DNA from: Eledone cirrhosa
Taxonomy: Eukaryota
Length of the DNA stretch: 64,000 nt
Assembly (NCBI GenBank): GCA_964016885.1
Contig: OZ024745.1
Span: forward strand, 95,604,001-95,668,000
Reading direction: 5' to 3'
Every line of letters begins with the position of its first letter. Positions within the stretch are counted from its first letter, which is position 1. A program made the position numbers and the translations under genes. Positions 3,220 to 53,248 of this stretch are shown in pieces. The notes below the pieces were generated by a model. It was not told where the DNA came from. It saw only the letters and a program-made list of their open reading frames with translations, and made no database searches.

Positions 3220-6135
3220 TTTATATATATATATATATAACCCATGTTAGCGTGGAAGATAGACATTAAATGATGATGATATATTTAAAACAAAAACAGA
3301 ATGCCGGACTTTCATGGAATTAAAATTTACAGCATATTTCAATGGCCCAGCTCCATCATCCATTTATGATGCAAATAGGATGATCTCATCAGGTAACTTC
3401 AACGGGATTACAAAATATATATATATTTACACATCCATATATATATATATATTTATACATACATGTATATACACACACACATATATATATATATCATCAT
3501 CATTATCATCACCGTTTAACGTCCATTTTTCTATGCTTGCATGGGTCAGATGAGTCGTCCACAACGAGGAACAAGTCTGACCAGAATTGGCTATGCTGTA
3601 CCTTGCTCTGACGGGATTGTAAATTTGGCTGGGGTTTTTACAGCTGGATGCTCTTCCTACAATTTACTTAAGCTCACCATAGTCAGGCTTGCCGATGTTT
3701 ATCAGTTAGGACTGCAACTTATTGAGGATGCCTTTTTGTTACTCAATTCTCATGGAACCAATTCCAAGCCATGATGATGCTAACACATGGTTGAAAGTGT
3801 CTAGGGAGCTTCAGAACACTGTCTGTAGAAGTCAGAAACCTGTTCAGAATATGTCATATAACAATTGGCAGTGGTGATTTGATGTCTTCCTGGCTATGGG
3901 CAATCAGCTGTGGTCCCACTAACCTAGGCATAATGCTGCATTGTATAGATAGTAGAAAAATACATTAAATGTATTTCTAGCCTGACTGGCATCAACACCA
4001 GCCTTTCAGAGACAAAGGACTCAATTAGATTCTTCATCAATTTAATCTTAGCATTACCATCTTGTAAAGATAGCAAGACTATAATGGATAAAGAATTATT
4101 GAAGTGCACATATATTCATTGTTGACACCTCACATCTGCTACAATATGTGTTCATAGTAAGTGAAGTCTATACAGGAAAACATGCCACAATGACCTACCT
4201 AACACTAGTGTAATTTTTGTATTGTATCAGATTGTAGATCCTCTAATAATAAACTTTTAAAACTAGGCTTGTATATTCAAACATTTAAACACTGTGTATT
4301 TAAACATTTAAAGCAAAGCTTGTGTATTTAAACATTTAAAGCCAGGCTTGTGTATCTAAAATGCTTGAGATGTTCATATTTTTAATGTAAGTATACAATG
4401 ATATATAAAATGTATAGAGAATATGTAAAATATACAAGAAATCTCTGATATTTGGGAAAATAAAATAAAGATGAAAGAATTAAGTTTTGTTTGCAAGAGA
4501 GCTTACAGCAATTGGTGAAGAACAAATTGAATACAATTTGTTGACATAAAGTGTGCAGTGTTAACTTACAAGAAAGCTGAACACAAATAATTTTAGAAAA
4601 TCACAGGCTATAAAAAGCTTTGGTTGATGTATTCAAAAGTGATAGCTATGTTGTAATGGACATAAAAATCAAAATCAGTGATGCTTGTTGAAAGCAAAAG
4701 TGATAGGATTAGATGATAAAAGACAGTTGCAGTAGAAGCAGAACAAAGACTACAGAATAATGGGCCTAACCTATTAAATAAGACATATAATCAAGGAACG
4801 TTGATGATGGTGCATGGTAGATGCATTATATTCATACCAGAATAGAAAAAAGTCTTTGAAAAAATAACAATGATAGGAATAGAGATGCTAAAAATTATTA
4901 ATGACTAGAACCTCCATACAATAATAAATGTTTATAAACCTTACAAAATTGACTGTTCTATGGTGCAGTGTGCTAATGAGATTTAATGAATAGCCAAGTT
5001 TTGACAAAACAATCTGTGAGAAAGACTCTACCAGATAGTCCTTCATCTCCATTCCCATCTATAACTGAAGACTTGGGTCTAAATTTGAGCAAACTAACCA
5101 GATCCTACTAATATTTACGACATACATCTAGTCTTCTCTGAGACATAAATCTTCCATCCTCTATGCTTCAATTTTGTCTACACTTTAAGCAAACTCTGGA
5201 AATATGTCTGACAAACTACTTTCTAAATGAGCATATCTGTATATATATTTTGTGTCAACATGTAATAATACTTTCAGTTACAGACATAATAATACTGTAA
5301 CCAGCTTCATTTACATTTTCTTACACAAAAGAGCTGTGGGGAATTCAGTTTCCTAAAAGAGCACATATGATCTATATTGGATTTTTCTTGTTAAATGGGT
5401 TGATACCAAAATTTAGAAACAATCAATGCTGGTAGCAGCATTTAAAAAGCTGGTAATCTCAGATTGCCAATATGTTCCTTAAACAAAAAAATTCAAGCAA
5501 CTATTAACGTTATTAAGTCAAACTAAATACAACTTTTAAAATCAAACAAAGAAGAGCCATACATTAAAAACGTTGATATAAAACTATAGACTGTATTTTC
5601 AGCTTCTGGCAAATTTATAGATTAGATGAAAAGTCAAAAAATAAAAGTATCTATTCTAACAAAAGACATAGTACACCAAGGAATACTACCAGCTGAAAAC
5701 AAAATAAAATGTGGGTATGTATGTATGATATAATATTGTAGCTTATAGATTACATTTGGAAATGAAAGGTAATTTATTTCTAATTATTTGTCATGTAACA
5801 CTACATACCTTGATGTTACATTGCATAAAAAATGTAAATAAAAAAAATATAATAATAATAATAATAATAATTATAATAATGATTTCATTTATTGGCCACA
5901 AGGGCCGACATATAGGGGACAATACAAAAGACTGGGACAGTGGGGTTTTACAGAAAAATCGAGTAAACAATATGAATAACAATAACATAGTAACAAGAAA
6001 ATTACAACAAGAAAAAATTCCCCAATGGGGGGATGACCACCCAGGGTTTGCTCAGGTACCCCACCAATCCTGAACGACCCGACGCTTCGAGAGCACCCTG
6101 GAAGGGCACCCCCTCTCCTCCTCAAATTTACCTAC

Positions 6136-13487: not shown

Positions 13488-16400
13488 CATTACATTTTCT
13501 GTTTCTATTAATTGCTAAATACGTAGGTTTTTGGACGTATTTCACAGAACAAATTTTGTATTTTTGTTAATCGCTTGTTAAATGCATGGACCCCATTCAA
13601 TCATTACCTTCTTGCTAGCTATTTTCAAACCTTAATTCCTAACGTATTTTCAAACCTCAATCCCTAATTCTAGCGTATCTTCAAAACAAAAAAAAACAAA
13701 ATCCTTTCCTTCTTCCTTCTTCGAAGGCACGGGGCGGTCAAACGCCTAACACTCACAGCCATCATGTGGCCCCCTCCCCTCGCTCTCTCTCACTCTCTCT
13801 CTCTCTCTATAAATATATGATAGGAATTCACTTCGCCAAATTTCATTTCATTGCTTGCTGTCCACGATATTCATGTAAACGTAATGTACAGACTTCATCT
13901 CTCTCTCTCCACAAATCTTAATTCTAGCGTATTTTCAAAACAATCCATATTTCGTATCAAGTCCAAATAGCCAATCTATCGCTAAAACAAACTACATTTT
14001 CTGTTTCTATTAATTGCTAAATACGTAGGTTTTTGGACGTATTTAACAGAACAAATTTTGTATTTTTGTTAATCGCTTGTTAAATGCATGGACCCCATTC
14101 AATCATTACCTTCTTGCTAGCTACCCAACACCCCTACCCCCACGCACCACCATTGCTATTACGTGGACCAATCATAAAACAGAGCCCCCACGCATCACCA
14201 GTATTATTACGCGGACCAATCAGAAACCAGAGGCCTATACTATCGCTTGCCTGGTTGCCTTTCGATATACGATATATGATGGATGGATGGACTGCGGAAT
14301 CCTGGAGAGTGGAGGTGAGAGAGAAAAATCTGGACGCTCAGCGACAATGCCAAAGATAAAGACAAATTCACCTCTTGGACGAGAATGCGAGCACTCCTCA
14401 TTGTTTCGACCGCGGACGGCTAACATAACCCCATCGCCCCCCGCCCCTCACCGCCCCCAACCCCCAAACGCAATCCAAAACTTCAGAGTTGGTACCATAA
14501 ATGTAGGCACCCTAAAGGGTCGCGCTAACGAGGTTGTAGAAATGCTTGAACGTAAGGAGGTCGATGTTTGTTGTATTCAAGAGACCAGGAGGAGGGGTGG
14601 GTCTGCTAGGTTCATTGAGGGTAAAAAAACGATGTTATAAGCTTTTCTGGGTGGGAAACGACGATGGGCTGGGTGGAGTAGGAATCATGGTAGCAGAAAA
14701 GTGGGCAGATAAGATAATAGACGTAAATAGAGTGAACGACAGAATAATTAAAATACGACTTGTCCTCAATAGAACTACGGTGACAGTAATATCTGCGTAC
14801 GCACCCCAATCCGGACTGCCCGGCACTATAAAAGACAGATTCTATGAGACACTGATGCTAACTACCTCCCAAATATCCGACAGTGACTATATAATTATCG
14901 CAGGCGACCTAAATGGTCACGTTGGACAACATTGTGACGGCTATGACGAAATCCATGGAGGCTATGGGTTTGGTACTAGAAATGAGGAAGGCGCCAGAAT
15001 CCTGGAATTCTGTGATGCAAATAACCTAACTATCTGTAACACTAACTTCAAAAAACGTGACAATCACCTGATCACCTATAGATCCGGGGAACACACAAGC
15101 CAGGTAGATTATATCCTTACCAGAAGACGTGACAGAGTGTCTGTTGTTAACACTAAATCCCTCCCCCATGAAGAATGCACCTCCCAACATAGACTGATAA
15201 TTAGCGACCTCATAGTCAGGACGAGACGTACTCGACAACAGAAGAGGACTATCCTCAGGAGGAAAATATGGAAGCTAAAGGACCCCACAGCCAGGAATAA
15301 ATTTCAAAGCATATTACTTGATGCTTTCGACAGTAAGGAAGAACATTTAGAGTCGGACAATATAGAGGGAGAGTGGGAATTTCTGAAAGCAAACCTGCTG
15401 TTGGCGACAGACGAGGTCTGTGGCTGGAGCAGGCCTGTAGGCAGGAGGAGAGTAACATGGTGGTGGAACAGTAAGGTGGAGGGGTCAATTAAGGCCAAAA
15501 AGCAGGCTTGGAAAGTATGGCGGGATGGGGGAAGTAGAGAGGACTATCAAGTGGCCAGGAGGGAAGCTAGGAGACAAGTGTACTTAGCAAGAAGGGAAGC
15601 TGAGGAAAGAAAGTTCAAGCATGTTCTACAACGCGATGACCAAAAACGTGAGGTGTTCAGGATTGCTAGGCAATGCGTCAAGGAAAACCGTGATATTGTC
15701 GGGGAGAAGTGTGTACTAAACGACGATGGCACACTTGCCATCACCGACGCTGATAAGAAGGTAGCTTGGAAGTGTCACTATGAAAGGCTACTAAATGAGG
15801 AGAATAATTGGGAGAAAGGCAGTCTCCCCCATATCGACCCAATAGAGGGACCAGCAGTGTTAGTCGAGGGGAGTATAATAAGTAAGGCAATCAAGGATAT
15901 GAAGACTGGTAAGGCGGCTGGGCCTTCGGAAATAGTTGCTGAGATGCTGAAGGCATCTGGAACGGTGGGACACACCATGGTCACCCGCATAGTTAACCAA
16001 GTCGTACAGAATGGGGTTGTTCCGAAGGACTGGCATAGCAGCATCATCGTTAACTGTTATAAGGGTAAAGGAGACACCCTAGATAGGAGTAACTATAGAG
16101 GCATTAAATTAATCGACCAGGTCATGAAGGTCACGGAAAAAGTAATAGCGCAACTAATCAGAGAGAGAATTGACCTAGATGAAATGCAGTTCGGGTTTGT
16201 GTCAGGCAAAAGTACCACAGACGCTCTTTTCATAGTACGACAACTACAGGAGAAGTACCTAGCTAAAGGTAAACCCCTCTACTTAGCTTTTGTCGACTTG
16301 GAGAAAGCCTTCGACAGAGTCCCCCGCTCCATTATCTGGTGGGCTCTTAGAAAACTAGGCGTTGACGAATGGCTTGTGAGGGCTATACAAGCCATGTATA

Positions 16401-17917
16401 AAGAAACAGTCAGCAAGGTTAGAATTAACAACGAATATAGTGAAGAGTTTAGCGTAAAAGTTGGCGTCCATCAGGGCTCTGTTCTCAGTCCACTACTATT
16501 TATTATTGCCCTTCAGGCTATAACAGAGGAGTTCAAGACAGGCTGCCCATGGGAACTCCTATACGCAGACGACCTGACACTCATAGCGGAATCAATGGCC
16601 GAGCTAGAGAAGAAATTCCAAACATGGAAGCACGGCCTAGAGTCAAAAGGACTTAAAATTAACCTGGCTAAGACCAAAGTACTAGTTTGTAGGAAAGAAA
16701 ACAAGGCGGCGGTCCCTTCTGGGAAATGGTCGTGCTCGGTGTGTAGGAAAGGCGTAGGTAGAAACTCCATTTTATGTCCTAAATGCAAAGTATGGGTGCA
16801 TAAAAGATGTAGTGGGATCACAGGTAAGCTAACTAAGAACATAGATTTTACATGTGGCCGGTGCTCTGGTGCAATAAGTAGCAGCAAGTGCCCACAAACT
16901 ACTAGCTCTTTCAATTGCGCAGAGGGTTCTATAGAAATAGTGGACAGCTTCCGTTACCTGGGCGATAAAATCAGCAGTGGGGGAGGGTGCTCTGAAAGTA
17001 CTGTAGCTAGAGTCAGAACTGGTTGGAAAAAGTTCAGAGAGCTTATACCACTATTAGCTGCTAAAGGGTTCTCACTAAAAATGAAAGGCAGGTTGTACGA
17101 TGCCTGCATACGAACAGCAATGCTGCATGGCAGTGAGACCTGGGCATTGTGTGCAGAGGATATACGCAGACTAGAGAGGAACGAAGCTTGCATGCTCCGC
17201 TGGATGTGTAACAGTAATATACGTGAACGGCAAAGCATAAACGAACTAAGGAAAAAATTAGAGATAAGAGGGATCAGATGTTGTTTACTCGAGAGAAGGC
17301 TACGTTGGTATGGACACGTGATGCGCATGAAAGTCGATAGCTGTATAACAAAGTGCAGGGCAATAAAGATAGACGGTAGTCACGGAATAGGCAGACCTAG
17401 AAAAACCTGGGACGAGCTGATAAACTCCGACATCACACACTTACACCTCTCCAAGACAATGTCACTGGACCGAGACCTTTGGCGGTACTCAGTAACAGAG
17501 AAGACCCGCCTTACCTAAATATATAGTAAAACCTACTCCAGCCAGTAGGCATCTCTAACAAAATACACCCCGTCCCACCACCACCACCCCCACCCGATCC
17601 ACACCACCCCGTTCTATGTAAAGTTATGTTGGTGCCGCGCCATCGAGGCCGAAACAAATGAGATCATGTAGGTGTCACGACAAAAAAACACACAGTCCAC
17701 GCTGTAATGTGGCCGTGTAGGCAACACGGTAAAAACCTCCCAGACCCACACTGTAAATGTGGTTGGTGTTAGGAAGGGCATCCAACTGTAGAAAACCTGC
17801 CAGACAGTCCTATGCGAGCAAGACAATCACTCTTGCCTCAAGTGGGACTACCCCCGTCCAAACCCATGCAAGCGTGGAACACGGACGTTAAACGTTGATG
17901 ATGATGATGATGATGAT
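13488..17917 (+). mobile_element. Near-intact RTE-clade LINE with a partly duplicated 5' UTR and (GAT)n tail
   Basis: Single long ORF, ~400 bp 3' UTR and (GAT)n tail. 13491-13622 is repeated at 13993-14123. Confidence 0.92.
14347..17518 (+). CDS. RTE ORF: APE endonuclease + reverse transcriptase + PHD-like zinc finger; one +1 frameshift at A7 run 14623-14629
   Basis: GTINV, QET, GDLN, DYIL, SQH, YRGIKL, FVDLEKAFD, QGSVLSP, YADD, CSVC...CPKCKVWVHKRC...CGRC, RWYGHV. Comparison with the copy at 62666 (GGTAAAGAACGATG) shows the extra A. Confidence 0.9.
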
Positions 17918-28251: not shown

Positions 28252-28600
28252 ATGGAGGCACATGGCTTAGTGGTTAGAGCATTGGCCTTGCAATCGAAAG
28301 GTTGTGAGTTCAATTCTCAGACTGGGTGATGTGTTGTTTCCTTGAGCAAGACACTTTATTTCACATTGCTCCAGTTTACTCAGCTGTAGAAATGAGGTGA
28401 TAGGGACTGGGGTCCATATCATACCACTGCAAAGTGGTCGTGGAGGTGCCACAGCAAAAATGCACCCAGCACTCGCTGTAAATGAGGTTGGCGTTAGGAA
28501 GGGCATCCAGCTGTAGAAATCAAGCCAGAATCAGTTCCCGTCCCACCCTTGCAAGCAGGGAAAAAGCGGACGTAAAATGAAATGATGATGATGATGATGA
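28252..28600 (+). mobile_element. tRNA/CORE SINE with RTE tail
   Basis: Near-identical to 1822-2170. Confidence 0.9.
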
Positions 28601-34285: not shown

Positions 34286-34682
34286 ACAATATTTTATGTG
34301 CTGTGATATTGCTTATCTTGAATTGTTCATATATTACCTCATAGATTTTAAATTAGGATTCGTTTGATTACTGCTGATGATGAAACATTGAGCTTCAATT
34401 TATCTTCATAAATATAAAGTGGATATCTCCATTTATAAAAAATATTTTTGCATGTGTGCATATATATATATATATGTATTAAGGATACTATTTATGGTTA
34501 TGTATGTAATAAAACCTTTTATGGTTATATATTTTTTATACAAACCCTAAATAGTGAAAGATAGTCATTAAATTACTATCTTATTACCAGTAAGATAAAT
34601 AGCTCAATGTAATAACATCGGTTGTTTTACAGAGCAGTTATATAGAGATTACAATAATCAAAGTTCAGTTTAAATCATTTAT

Positions 34683-34731
34683 TTGCTTACAATTGTTTCC
34701 TCCAAACCGAGTTTTGGATTCTTCGGAGCAA
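34683..34731 (-). ncRNA. Minimal type I hammerhead ribozyme motif, CCGAAGA core variant (left arm)
   Basis: Reverse complement of 35687-35735 with one stem II difference. Confidence 0.55.
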
Positions 34732-35686
34732 CTATTTAGTGATCTATAACATACTTGACCTCCTTTTCAACACAAGAGACATATAAAAACATATGCACAT
34801 ATTGATCCACAGTGGGATGACATCCATCAAAATGATATAGCATGGCAATTTACATATAAAGGTTAAAGGATAAAGATAAAAATAAAAATAAAAATAAAAA
34901 TGAAGCATTGGCAGTCTATGAAGATAAAGCAAGAGGAAAGTTTAGAGTAGTCAGTGTATGAAACAATCTCACGTGTAGCATGCACGCGTGTCTTATTTAT
35001 AGAGGATTAGAGTGCGTCAAAATGGTACTTGCAGGGTCAGGCAGTTGAAGCAGAATATAATATCATCACACAAAACTAAACAACATGATCTATTAATTAA
35101 GAATCGACAAGATACGGTTTATAACTTGGTTATATGCCGAACCATCGTGAATTATATGATAGACCCGTGGTCTATATATTGCGTCTCATGGATTATGTGA
35201 GTGGTGGTGTGCGCGAAGACAGTGGTACTGTTTTGCCTACGATATAATATGTTTTATAATATGTTTGAGATTTTTGATATTTTGGTGTTTCTCTACATTC
35301 GGGACTGTATACCATACAGGTGTATGCGAAAAAATGATTTAATAATTCAGCCCACATAATAATATCGATTGCCTGCTTCAACTGCCTGACCCTGCAAGTA
35401 CATTCTGACGCACTCTAATCCTCTATAAATAAGACACGCGTGCATGCTACACGTGAGATTGTTTCATACACTGACTACTCTAAACTTTCCTCTTGCTTTA
35501 TCTTCATAGACTGCCAATGCTTCATTTTTATTTTCATTTTTATTTTTATTTTTATCCTTTAAATGTAAATTGCCATGCTATATCATTTTGATGGATGTCA
35601 TCCCACCGTGGATCAATATGTGCATATGTTTTTATATGTCTCTTGTGTTGAAAAGGAGGTCAAGTATGTTATAGATCACTAAATAG

Positions 35687-35735
35687 TTGCTCCGAAGAAT
35701 CCAAACCTCGGTTTGGAGGAAACAATTGTAAGCAA
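35687..35735 (+). ncRNA. Minimal type I hammerhead ribozyme motif, CCGAAGA core variant
   Basis: TTGCT-CCGAAGA-A-TCCAAAC(CTCG)GTTTGGA-G-GAAA-CAATTG-TA-AGCAA: 5-bp stem I, 7-bp stem II, palindromic stem III ACAATTGT, GUA site. Confidence 0.6.
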
Positions 35736-35818
35736 ATAAATGATTTAAACTGAACTTTGATTATTGTAATCTCTCTATATATATATATGTATGTATACAT
35801 ATGTGTGTGTGTGTATAT

Positions 35819-50961: not shown

Positions 50962-51758
<797 letters not shown>

Positions 51759-51768
51759 ATATATATAT

Positions 51769-52159
51769 AAAGGCTCATGGCTTAGTGGTTAGAGAATTGG
51801 GCTTGCAAACGAGAGGTTGTGAGTTCAAATCTCAGACCGAGTGATGTGTTGTTTCCTTGAGCAAGACACTTTATTTCAAATTGCTCCAGTTTACTCAGCT
51901 GTAGAAATGAGATGATAGGACTGGGGTCCCTATCATTCCACTGCAAAGTTGACGTGGAGGCGCCACAGAAAAAAAGCACCCACCACTCACTGTAAATGAG
52001 GTTGGTGTTAGGAAGGGCATCCAGCTGTAGAAATCAACCTAGAATCAGTTCCCATATGAGCAAGACAAGGTAAGCCGACCAGACTCTGCCCACAACAGGA
52101 CAACCCGTCTAACCCATGCTAGCGTGGAAGAACGGACGTAAAACGGTGATGATGATGAT
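51769..52159 (+). mobile_element. tRNA/CORE SINE with the longer RTE subfamily B tail
   Basis: Head and CORE as in 1822; tail ends CCCGTCTAACCCATGCTAGCGTGGAAGAACGGACGTAAAACGG(TGA)n as in 46890. Confidence 0.85.
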
Positions 52160-52272
52160 ATTAATCAATGTGTTTTATGTTTAATCATGGTTAGAATCAG
52201 TTGCACAGTAACTGGATAAGCACTCAATACATGGACAGAATATGGAATAGATTTTTCAATGACAATATATAT

Positions 52273-52987
52273 ATCATCATCATCATCAACGTTTAACGTC
52301 CGTGTTCCACGCTTGCATGGGTTTGGACGGGGGTAGTCCCACTTGAGGCATAGGACTGTCTGGCAGGTTTTCTACAGTTGGATGCCCTTCCTAACACCAA
52401 CCACATTTACAGTGTGGGTCTGGGAGGTTTTTACCGTGTTGCCTACACGGCCACATTACAGCGTGGACTGTGTGTTTTTTTGTCGTGACACCTACACGAT
52501 CTCATTTGTTTCGGCCTGGATGGCGCGGCACCAACATAACTTTACATAGAACGGGGTGGTGTGGATGGGGTGGGGGTGGTGGTGGTGGGACGGGGTGTAT
52601 TTTGTTAGAGATGCCTACTGGCTGGAGTAGGTTTTACTATATATTTAGGTAAGGCGGGTCTTCTCTGTTACTGAGTACCGCCAAAGGTCTCGGTCCAGTG
52701 ACATTGTCTTGGAGAGGTGTAAGTGTGTGATGTCGAAGTTTATCAGCTCGTCCCAGGTTTTTCTAGGTCTGCCTATTCCGTGACTACCGTCTATCTTTAT
52801 TGCCCTGCACTTTGTTATACAGCTATCGTCCTTCATGCGCATCACGTGACCATACCAACGTAGCCTTCTCTCGAGTAAACAACATCTGATCCCTCTTATC
52901 TCTAATTTTTTCCTTAGTTCGTTTATGCTTTGCCGTTCACGTATATTACTGTTACACATCCAGCGGAGCATGCAAGCTTTGTTCCTC
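52273..52987 (-). mobile_element. 5'-truncated RTE copy, inverted relative to 51084-51758
   Basis: Reverse complement of ~17175-17910, with a ~20-bp deletion in the 3' UTR. Confidence 0.92.
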
Positions 52988-53248
52988 TCATATATATATT
53001 AAATTCACTATTACAACGAAGGCACAACATAGAGAAATGGTGGGACACATGTTTCGCCGAGTGAACTCAACTTATTCAACCAACAGTGTTTCACCAAGGG
53101 AGAAGACTTCCAAGGCCTGAGTGTTCTGCATATTGGATATCTTTACCAAATTTATTATTACATTATGTGTGTCTTTGGGAGATAAGGGTCTAATGATTGT
53201 TGCAAAAACTGAATTTCTTGGTTGTGTTAATAGAAAATATATATATAT

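What the first reader, a model, noticed from the sequence alone, without database searches (positions are those of the whole stretch)
34643..35775. 1.1-kb inverted-repeat element: divergent TATA-hammerhead-polyA arms with a non-canonical CCGAAGA core
Seen: two ~410-bp arms face outward. Each has TATAAATA (35424), a well-paired minimal type I hammerhead ~260 bp later and AATAAA immediately after it. The core reads CCGAAGA instead of CUGAnGA in both arms, with an extra A.G pair at the base of stem II. The spacer has no recognisable ORF. Known: Penelope pLTR and retrozyme hammerheads are minimal type I motifs with palindromic stem III that can act as dimers. Inference: a non-coding ribozyme-bearing retroelement with a variant core, which could make self-processed RNAs from both strands or a long hairpin dsRNA.
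Basis: partly seen in the sequence, partly recalled or inferred. Interest (0 to 1): 0.75.

Follow-up and report, generated by a model that had tools for sequence, protein, structure and literature searches.

The report
Hydra retroelement with C4-core dimer hammerhead
The inverted repeat is a shortened, back-to-back copy of the tail of a known kind of jumping gene; the unusual part is that about 7,000 copies, including intact ones, carry a hammerhead RNA motif with C where U is normally fixed, while the stem that would pair two RNA copies keeps its symmetry, so it is likely a slow, pair-dependent self-cutter, though cutting is untested.

Summary
The arms and both motifs are real (412/420 identical), but this is not a stand-alone non-coding element. 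It is a 5'-truncated, inverted two-arm insertion in (TA)n of a 4.2-4.7-kb Hydra-clade Penelope-like retroelement (RT plus GIY-YIG; intact 829-834-aa frames exist). Inverted copies, tails and a mismatch at the base of stem II are all published features of this clade. The CCGA (U4C) core is real and lineage-wide: 1,208 CCGA against 11 CTGA and 16 CCAA (CpG decay), about 7,000 copies over several families, and 23 of 23 motifs at 15 protein-ascertained loci. Stem III stays palindromic through CAATTG, CAGCTG and CGATCG, including a pair that only a dimer can form. No excess of copies starts at the predicted cut site, and no RNA data were available. I found no paper reporting a fixed U4C in Penelope elements (six searches), but this scan noted it before, in this genome and others. 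New variant of a known kind; moderate interest.

The parts
34476..35775 (.). Whole insertion: two 5'-truncated 3' ends of a Hydra-clade Penelope-like element joined back to back, (TA)n on both sides
   Evidence: BLAST of window against natural full-length copies L062 and L044; flanks read
35053..35773 (+). Long arm: last ~720 nt of the element's 3' UTR/pseudo-LTR, ending at the standard terminus (E0); followed by TC and (TA)n
   Evidence: 96.8% identical to L044 over 730 nt
34645..35053 (-). Short inverted arm: last ~410 nt of the same 3' end
   Evidence: 412/420 identical to the long arm
34476..34644 (-). 168-nt tail: first bases of the next unit (5' UTR side), ending at the second fixed terminus, then (TA)n.
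   Evidence: 94.7% match to unit positions 1-168 of L062; same end point in tail-bearing arms
35054..35365 (+). So-called spacer: the part of the long arm with no partner; ordinary 3' UTR sequence
35687..35735 (+). Minimal type I hammerhead motif: stem I 5 bp, core CCGAAGA (35692-35698, U4C), A.G mismatch at 10.1/11.1, stem II 7 bp, GAAA, palindromic stem III ACAATTGT; predicted cut after 35730
34683..34731 (-). Second copy of the hammerhead motif (core starts 34726, predicted cut after 34688); one private change shortens stem II
35424..35431 (+). TATAAATA, 268 nt before the core; candidate pseudo-LTR promoter (inferred)
   Evidence: TATA-like box at this place in families A, B, C and F
34994..35001 (-). 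TATAAATA of the inverted arm
35735..35740 (+). AATAAA directly behind stem I; ATTAAA in families D/E, absent in intact family F, so not an essential part
34678..34683 (-). AATAAA of the inverted arm

Best explanation
The locus is a non-coding, 5'-truncated, back-to-back insertion of a Hydra-clade Penelope-like retroelement in a (TA)n tract, and the C4-core hammerhead it carries is likely a slow, dimer-dependent ribozyme that is still under selection in the source elements but is likely not needed to cut the RNA that gets copied. Shown: family, layout, copy numbers, core state, stem covariation. Inferred from Frangieh 2024: the RT-endonuclease nicks both strands of the TA tract and starts reverse transcription at two fixed internal sites 170 nt apart, one per strand; the two incomplete cDNAs join at their 5'-truncated ends, giving one arm with the tail and one without. 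Inferred: two RNA copies pair through the stem III palindrome to form a double hammerhead; C4 may keep the U-turn as a protonated C, as shown for another RNA. Untested: cleavage, transcription, circular RNA.
For: Family: arms are the 3' end of a 4,697-nt tandem unit with RT and C-terminal GIY-YIG; intact frames of 829-834 aa in a sister family carry RWR, DKT, CxCx5C, CxxC and CxH, the Hydra diagnostics of Craig 2021. Layout: of 51 insertions covering the first 60 hits, 21 are inverted with one E0 end and one tail end, 1 has two tails, 0 have two E0 ends, 29 have one arm (21 of 22, p=1e-5). Core: 1,208 CCGA, 11 CTGA, 16 CCAA; 2,915 more CCGA motifs in sister families; 2,943 motifs in families F/F2, first 100 listed 97 CCG, 1 CTG, 2 CCA; 23 of 23 motifs of this lineage at 15 of 50 loci found by protein, not by motif, are CCGA. 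Selection on the fold: upstream 100 nt only 50-58% alike between families A-C and D/E while the core is kept (partly by construction of the pattern); stem III is CAATTG, CAGCTG or CGATCG, with G.U intermediates; 45 of 45 stem III cells paired, changes on both sides in stems I, II and III; the central A-U to G-C change in family F can pair only between two molecules, and two F copies co-fold as a double hammerhead (-35.1 against -23.4 kcal/mol for two monomers). N7, H17 and 10.1/11.1, the free positions, vary. U4C lowers activity in vitro yet supports viroid infectivity (Perreault 2011). Cutting dispensable: a G5A core sits in both arms of 2 of 14 CCAA loci.
Against: No cleavage or expression data. 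No genomic cut marks: 15 matches starting at the predicted cut against 12 at a control position 8 nt upstream, 10 against 9 after removing point variants by eye. In the window's own family the best monomer fold is not a hammerhead (-15.0 against -10.6 kcal/mol) and two copies co-fold as an extended duplex, not a double hammerhead. Mutations in the CUGA turn gave low activity in a deep scan of another hammerhead (PMC9901934). Covariation counts are small and families are related (pairs changed on both sides 3, matched by 312 of 500 shuffles). In old families CTG exceeds CCA (25 against 13 of 100 listed, p=0.07), so some old U4 sources are not excluded. Shared G5A in both arms could be gene conversion.
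Confidence: 0.62

Rival explanations
1. Same element, but the motif no longer cuts: it has become a structural module that pairs two template RNAs (or binds the protein dimer) so that both target strands can be primed in one event.
For: Palindrome kept through three sequences, including a dimer-only pair; strict one-E0/one-tail pairing of arms; no cut marks; G5A cores in both arms of two insertions; HHR mutants did not affect insertion in vitro and the protein was predicted to be a dimer (Frangieh 2024).
Against: G5, A6, G8, A9, G12-A14 and NUH are all kept across families whose endonucleases are only 67-70% identical; pairing alone would not need them. Naiads make the same inverted structures without canonical hammerheads (Craig 2021).
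Confidence: 0.2
2. Same element, with a fully active ribozyme: a protonated C4 replaces U4 seamlessly, and cleavage plus ligation gives circular RNA templates that explain the longer-than-unit tandems.
For: Protonated C can replace U in a U-turn (PMC4105743). In six young tandems the 5' partial copy is 99.4-100% identical to the 3' copy of the same insertion, against 96.8-99.5% between insertions, and reaches upstream of the TATA box, as re-copying of one RNA would give.
Against: U4C considerably lowered activity in the one natural case; metazoan minimal PLE hammerheads cut poorly even with U4; no cut marks. Template jumping or read-through of tandem arrays explains the tandems equally.
Confidence: 0.1
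3. The hammerhead is a dead relic: U4C arose once in a successful source element and was carried along passively.
For: One origin on the RT tree (families A-C, F form a clade, 96/98); no cut marks; misfolding in family A.
Against: Compensatory changes arose after C4 was fixed (CAATTG to CAGTTG to CAGCTG; CGATCG), while flanks diverged to 50-58%. CCGA recurs in 2 of 43 hammerhead-bearing metagenome loci with 6- and 7-bp stem I.
Confidence: 0.06
4. One reading: a dedicated non-coding two-armed element that makes self-processed RNAs from both strands or a regulatory hairpin dsRNA.
For: Both arms keep the TATA box and the motif; any transcript across the locus could fold a 410-bp hairpin.
Against: Arm lengths and junctions differ at every insertion; no family of fixed 1.1-kb elements was seen; the layout is the published PLE integration product.
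Confidence: 0.02

Closest known systems
Hydra clade of Penelope-like elements (Craig et al. 2021, PMC8557442; seen: passages, section 11, supplement part 2 with Files S1 Hydra sheet and S2)
   Same: C-terminal GIY-YIG, RW[KR], DKT, CxCx5C linker, CxxC/CxH, (TA)n target, 3' type I hammerhead with a mismatch at the base of stem II (U.U in many listed motifs); Penelope-13_HM has an inverted 5'-truncated copy with the motif on both strands; an Octopus family (Hydra-1_Obim) is listed.
   Different: All 26 Hydra rows of File S2 read ctga; here the core is CCGA. Unit 4.2-4.7 kb with a 1.5-2-kb 3' UTR against generally under 3 kb; tail about 170 nt against 30-40 bp described for PLEs; Hydra-1_Obim has a different hammerhead.
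Minimal hammerheads of metazoan PLEs (Cervera and de la Pena 2014, PMC4209133; seen: parts 1-2 of 4, supplement file 2 searched, file 1 not searchable)
   Same: Short stem I, 7-8-bp stem II, palindromic stem III, predicted dimer; pairs on opposite strands 100-700 bp apart; high variability within a genome.
   Different: Only the U3-A8 core variant is described; G10.1-C11.1 is called highly conserved, and is absent here.
Poseidon element PAc of Anolis (Frangieh et al. 2024, PMC11167929; seen: parts 1-2 of 4)
   Same: Two internal RT start sites that define the tail; both target strands cut and extended; AT-rich targets; hammerhead cleavage not needed for insertion; no reads ending at the cut site.
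   Different: Different clade; canonical core; start sites adjacent rather than 170 nt apart.
U4C hammerhead of a viroid (Ambros and Flores 1998, not held; known here only through Perreault et al. 2011, PMC3088659, section 8 and passages)
   Same: Same core substitution; low activity in vitro but tolerated in vivo.
   Different: A single viroid variant, not a state fixed in thousands of genomic copies; that ribozyme is not a minimal type I dimer.
Non-LTR retrozymes (PMC7229834, passages; bioRxiv 10.64898/2026.07.22.740005, part 1 of 5 and passages)
   Same: Non-coding repeats with type I hammerheads, linked to PLEs.
   Different: Retrozymes are short head-to-tail tandems with canonical motifs; this is an inverted truncation product of a coding element.

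Membership tests
Penelope-like element (EN+) | Single ORF with RT and GIY-YIG endonuclease in full-length members | tested here: met
   Frames of 829-834 aa at L367-L372; YRDD and VIY..YVG motifs; Pfam GIY-YIG E=0.003, below the curated cut-off, on L064; the intact frame had no significant Pfam hit; 59 homologues at E<=1e-20
Penelope-like element (EN+) | 5' truncation, partial tandems forming pseudo-LTRs, inverted 5' copies, tail on one end | tested here: met
Hydra clade | RWK-like motif, DKT, CxCx5C linker, CxxC and CxH around the conserved E and N | tested here: met
   RWR 51, DKT 138, CNCRANRTC 693, CNLC 791, CQH 819 in L368 against the list
Hydra clade | Insertion in (TA)n | tested here: met
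   3' ends followed by (TA)n, often through a (CT)n run, in 29 of 31 arms printed; both ends of the window copy
Hydra clade | Placement inside the published Hydra clade on an RT tree with named references | not tested
   Tree held only own-genome, metagenome and search-hit proteins, no named Hydra, Nematis or Neptune references
Hydra clade | Canonical hammerhead core (CUGAnGA) in the 3' end | tested here: not met
   CCGA in this lineage; this is the variant feature, not a ground to leave the clade
Hydra clade | Length generally under 3 kb | tested here: not met
   Periods 4,158-4,709 nt
Minimal type I hammerhead | Stems I, II and palindromic III around the core, with covariation | tested here: met
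   84% of cells paired against 26-46% for slid controls; three palindromes
Minimal type I hammerhead | Conserved core C3, G5, A6, G8, A9, G12, A13, A14, A15.1-U16.1, H17 | tested here: met
Minimal type I hammerhead | U4 | tested here: not met
   C4 in 1,208 of 1,219 family A matches
Minimal type I hammerhead | Self-cleavage at the NUH site | not testable with these tools
   No RNA run listed; indirect genomic test negative
Non-LTR retrozyme | Short non-coding head-to-tail tandem units with a hammerhead in each | tested here: not met
   Tandem period is the 4.2-4.7-kb coding unit; window copy is inverted
DNA transposon / MITE with long terminal inverted repeats | Fixed inverted termini and a fixed internal layout across copies | tested here: not met
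   Arm lengths vary freely, the two ends differ by the 170-nt tail, and 29 of 51 insertions have one arm

The most novel reading that the evidence does not exclude
A natural hammerhead lineage has fixed a C-turn (probably protonated C4) in place of the invariant U-turn and works only as an RNA dimer, and that dimer is what loads two templates onto the Penelope protein dimer, so that one integration event primes both target strands at two fixed sites and yields the one-tail inverted insertions. This would give the PLE hammerhead a role beyond cutting and explain the inverted structure.
Probability: 0.15. Interest if true: 0.8.

Novelty: new variant of a known kind. Interest (0 to 1): 0.42.

Why it matters
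The function of hammerheads in Penelope-like elements is an open question (Craig 2021; Frangieh 2024). This lineage offers a natural test set in one genome: thousands of copies, intact source elements, a core change expected to weaken cutting, a sister family with the U3-A8 core, and compensatory changes in the dimer-only pair. Searches that require CUGA, as the PLE surveys read here did, miss all of them, so hammerhead counts in such genomes are too low. The insertion itself is ordinary.

Tried and rejected
Rfam at gathering score: no hammerhead hit. RNA runs: no RNA holder listed; contigs of three runs from one sample show no T at core position 4 at 5% or more, but may be the source of the assembly and are not counted as support. 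Viral contigs: 79 pattern matches, none a relative. Cut-mark test, suggested by earlier notes: negative; in the 100 matches listed, read by eye, truncations cluster weakly inside the 3' strand of stem II and at a TA microhomology, not at the cut. DNA transposon/MITE reading rejected (variable arms, unequal ends, RT in long copies). Retrozyme reading rejected. Poly(A) reading weakened: no poly(A) in inserted ends, AATAAA missing in family F. An inhibitory fold that pairs C3-C4 with the GGA before GAAA is specific to family A and not conserved. Literature: six searches and finds in PMC6155905, PMC7229834, PMC3907566 and supplements of PMC8557442 and PMC4209133 gave no report of a fixed U4C in PLEs; one 2026 survey used a CYGANGA descriptor and reports C/T at that position (PMC13481778, passages). 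Figures, one supplement file of PMC4209133, bioRxiv supplements and subscription papers (for example the 2017 Terminon paper) were not seen and could hold such a report. Rows left out: L227 and L222 from the tree (no RT match); 36 of 79 metagenome loci had no motif.

Full report
1. Observation. The two arms are real: 412 of 420 aligned bases are identical, and a relaxed scan of both strands of the 64-kb window finds exactly two hammerhead-like motifs, with cores at 35692 (+) and 34726 (-), both CCGAAGA. TATAAATA lies 268 nt before the core and AATAAA overlaps the end of stem I. Rfam does not detect the motifs. The genome is 3.0 Gb and AT-rich; it is probably a cephalopod, an inference from the repeats and from homologue names.

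2. What the arms are. A 176-base piece has 1,194 candidate matches in the genome, the best 40 about 99% identical. [quoted passage not shown] Against that unit the window holds positions about 3974-4697 on the + strand, 4267-4697 on the - strand, and then positions 1-168 of the next unit at 34644-34476. Both ends lie in (TA)n. A protein search found frames of 829-834 aa without stops in a sister family, F, 98% identical to each other. Its protein has RWR, DKT, CxCx5C, CxxC and CxH, the features that Craig et al. 2021 give for the Hydra clade. I did not place it on a tree with named references.

3. The inverted layout is the known integration product. Craig et al. describe an inverted 5'-truncated copy and a tail on one end, and list a Hydra family with the hammerhead on both strands; Cervera and de la Pena saw motif pairs on opposite strands 100-700 bp apart. 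I classified the 51 insertions that cover the first 60 hits: 21 are inverted with one arm ending at the standard terminus and the other at the end of a 170-nt tail, 1 has two tails, none has two standard ends, and 29 have a single arm (19 standard, 9 tail, 1 other). One-of-each in 21 of 22 is far from chance. Frangieh et al. 2024 showed for another PLE that RT starts at two internal sites that bound the tail and that both target strands are cut and extended. The simplest reading, inferred, is that one event uses both start sites, one per strand.

4. The core variant. An exact 21-mer with CCGA has 1,208 matches, with CTGA 11, and with CCAA 16. CCAA is the other product of CpG decay and destroys G5, so CTGA is at background. 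Sister families add 2,915 CCGA motifs against 255 CTGA matches of a similar pattern, some unrelated. In the oldest families the first 100 of 192 matches read 62 CCG, 25 CTG and 13 CCA (counted by eye), which again points to a CCG ancestor. Families F and F2 add 2,943 matches, the first 100 being 97 CCG, 1 CTG and 2 CCA. The total is about 7,000, with slight overlap between patterns. At loci found by protein rather than by motif, all 23 motifs of this lineage, at 15 of 50 loci, are CCGA. The nearest other Hydra-type family in the genome (69% RT identity, sister on the tree with 99/96) has U4 with the known U3-A8 pair. Among 79 metagenome loci with related RTs, 43 have a sense-strand motif: 37 CTGA, 4 U3-A8, 2 CCGA and 1 CGGA, one locus holding both CTGA and CCGA; five shuffles of the same loci gave one hit. 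The one CCGA motif there that follows its own ORF (L305) lies far from this lineage on the tree, so U4C has arisen more than once. All 26 Hydra rows in the supplement of Craig et al. read ctga. The mismatch at 10.1/11.1 is usual in the clade.

5. Is the fold under selection? Upstream sequence is only 50-58% alike between families A-C and D/E while the core is kept (the patterns require the core, so this is partly by construction). On 15 natural copies, 84% of cells pair against 26-46% for slid controls, with changes on both sides in each stem, though only three such pairs. Stem III is the strongest case: CAATTG in A-C, CAGTTG then CAGCTG in F2 and F, CGATCG in D/E. The central pair cannot close in a monomer, so its change from A-U through G.U to G-C suggests pairing between two molecules. 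Two family F copies co-fold as a double hammerhead. Against this, the window's own family prefers another fold as monomer and as dimer, and the left arm has a private change in stem II.

6. Does it cut? Unknown. U4C considerably lowers activity in vitro but allowed viroid infectivity (Perreault 2011, citing a paper I could not open). A protonated C can replace U in a U-turn of a riboswitch. Minimal PLE hammerheads cut weakly even with U4, and the Anolis one needs protein and is dispensable for insertion. Here, copies starting exactly at the predicted cut are no commoner than at a control position (15 against 12 matches; 10 against 9 after removing point variants), and two insertions carry G5A in both arms. 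No RNA run was listed. In young tandems the 5' partial copy matches the 3' copy of the same insertion better than other insertions do, which fits a circular template but also template jumping.

7. Verdict. The locus is an ordinary, non-coding truncated copy of a known class of element. The notable feature belongs to the family: a hammerhead lineage that has fixed U4C, is carried by intact and recently active copies, and keeps a dimer-type palindrome by compensatory change. I found no such report in the papers searched, with the gaps listed above. Earlier notes of this scan describe the same variant in this genome and in others; they are not independent support. New variant of a known kind, interest 0.42.

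Noticed in passing
Families B/C; L225, L089, L219, L125, L209, L098 (first three bases after A9): Mutation hot spot at the 5' base of stem II: the two arms of one insertion differ at 10 of 39 sites there against 39 of 1,144 flanking sites (3.4%), often by several adjacent changes, while the 3' strand is nearly constant. May reflect RT stalling or fold-back copying at the folded motif (inferred).
   Followed up: partly
L378, L379, L380, L365: A second Hydra-type family in the same genome with a U3-A8 core, U4 and a G-C pair at 10.1/11.1; sister to the C4 lineage on the RT tree.
   Followed up: partly
L377:224-1610: Another abundant minimal hammerhead family (canonical CUGA core, CTAG stem III) in tandem repeats of 462 nt, retrozyme-like; single copies at many other loci.
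   Followed up: no
L370:9579, L382:5935, L383:380, L385:4605: A further family of canonical-core hammerheads with long stem II and a TATATA/TATGTA stem III.
   Followed up: no
Standard 3' termini, e.g. window 35774-35775, L190, L200, L204: Arms ending at the standard terminus often have a (CT)n run of variable length before the (TA)n; tail ends printed do not. Looks like reiterative slippage at priming (inferred).
   Followed up: no
L305:1726 and L266:2928: CCGA-core hammerheads with 7- and 6-bp stem I beside unrelated Hydra-type elements in marine metagenomes; L290:2308 has a CGGA core.
   Followed up: partly
window 14540-17518: 992-aa LINE-type frame with AP endonuclease, RT and a PHD-finger match.
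   Followed up: no
window 51085-52989: Two copies of the 3' end of that LINE (569-nt arms, 99%) facing each other tail to tail, 694 nt apart.
   Followed up: no
window 28261-28324 and 1822-2121: tRNA-like match at the head of a dispersed repeat, probably a tRNA-derived SINE.
   Followed up: no
L033, L003, L016, L049 (unit positions about 4416-4474): An internal (ATTTTT)n run in the 3' UTR, short in the window copy, has expanded to hundreds of bases in some copies.
   Followed up: no
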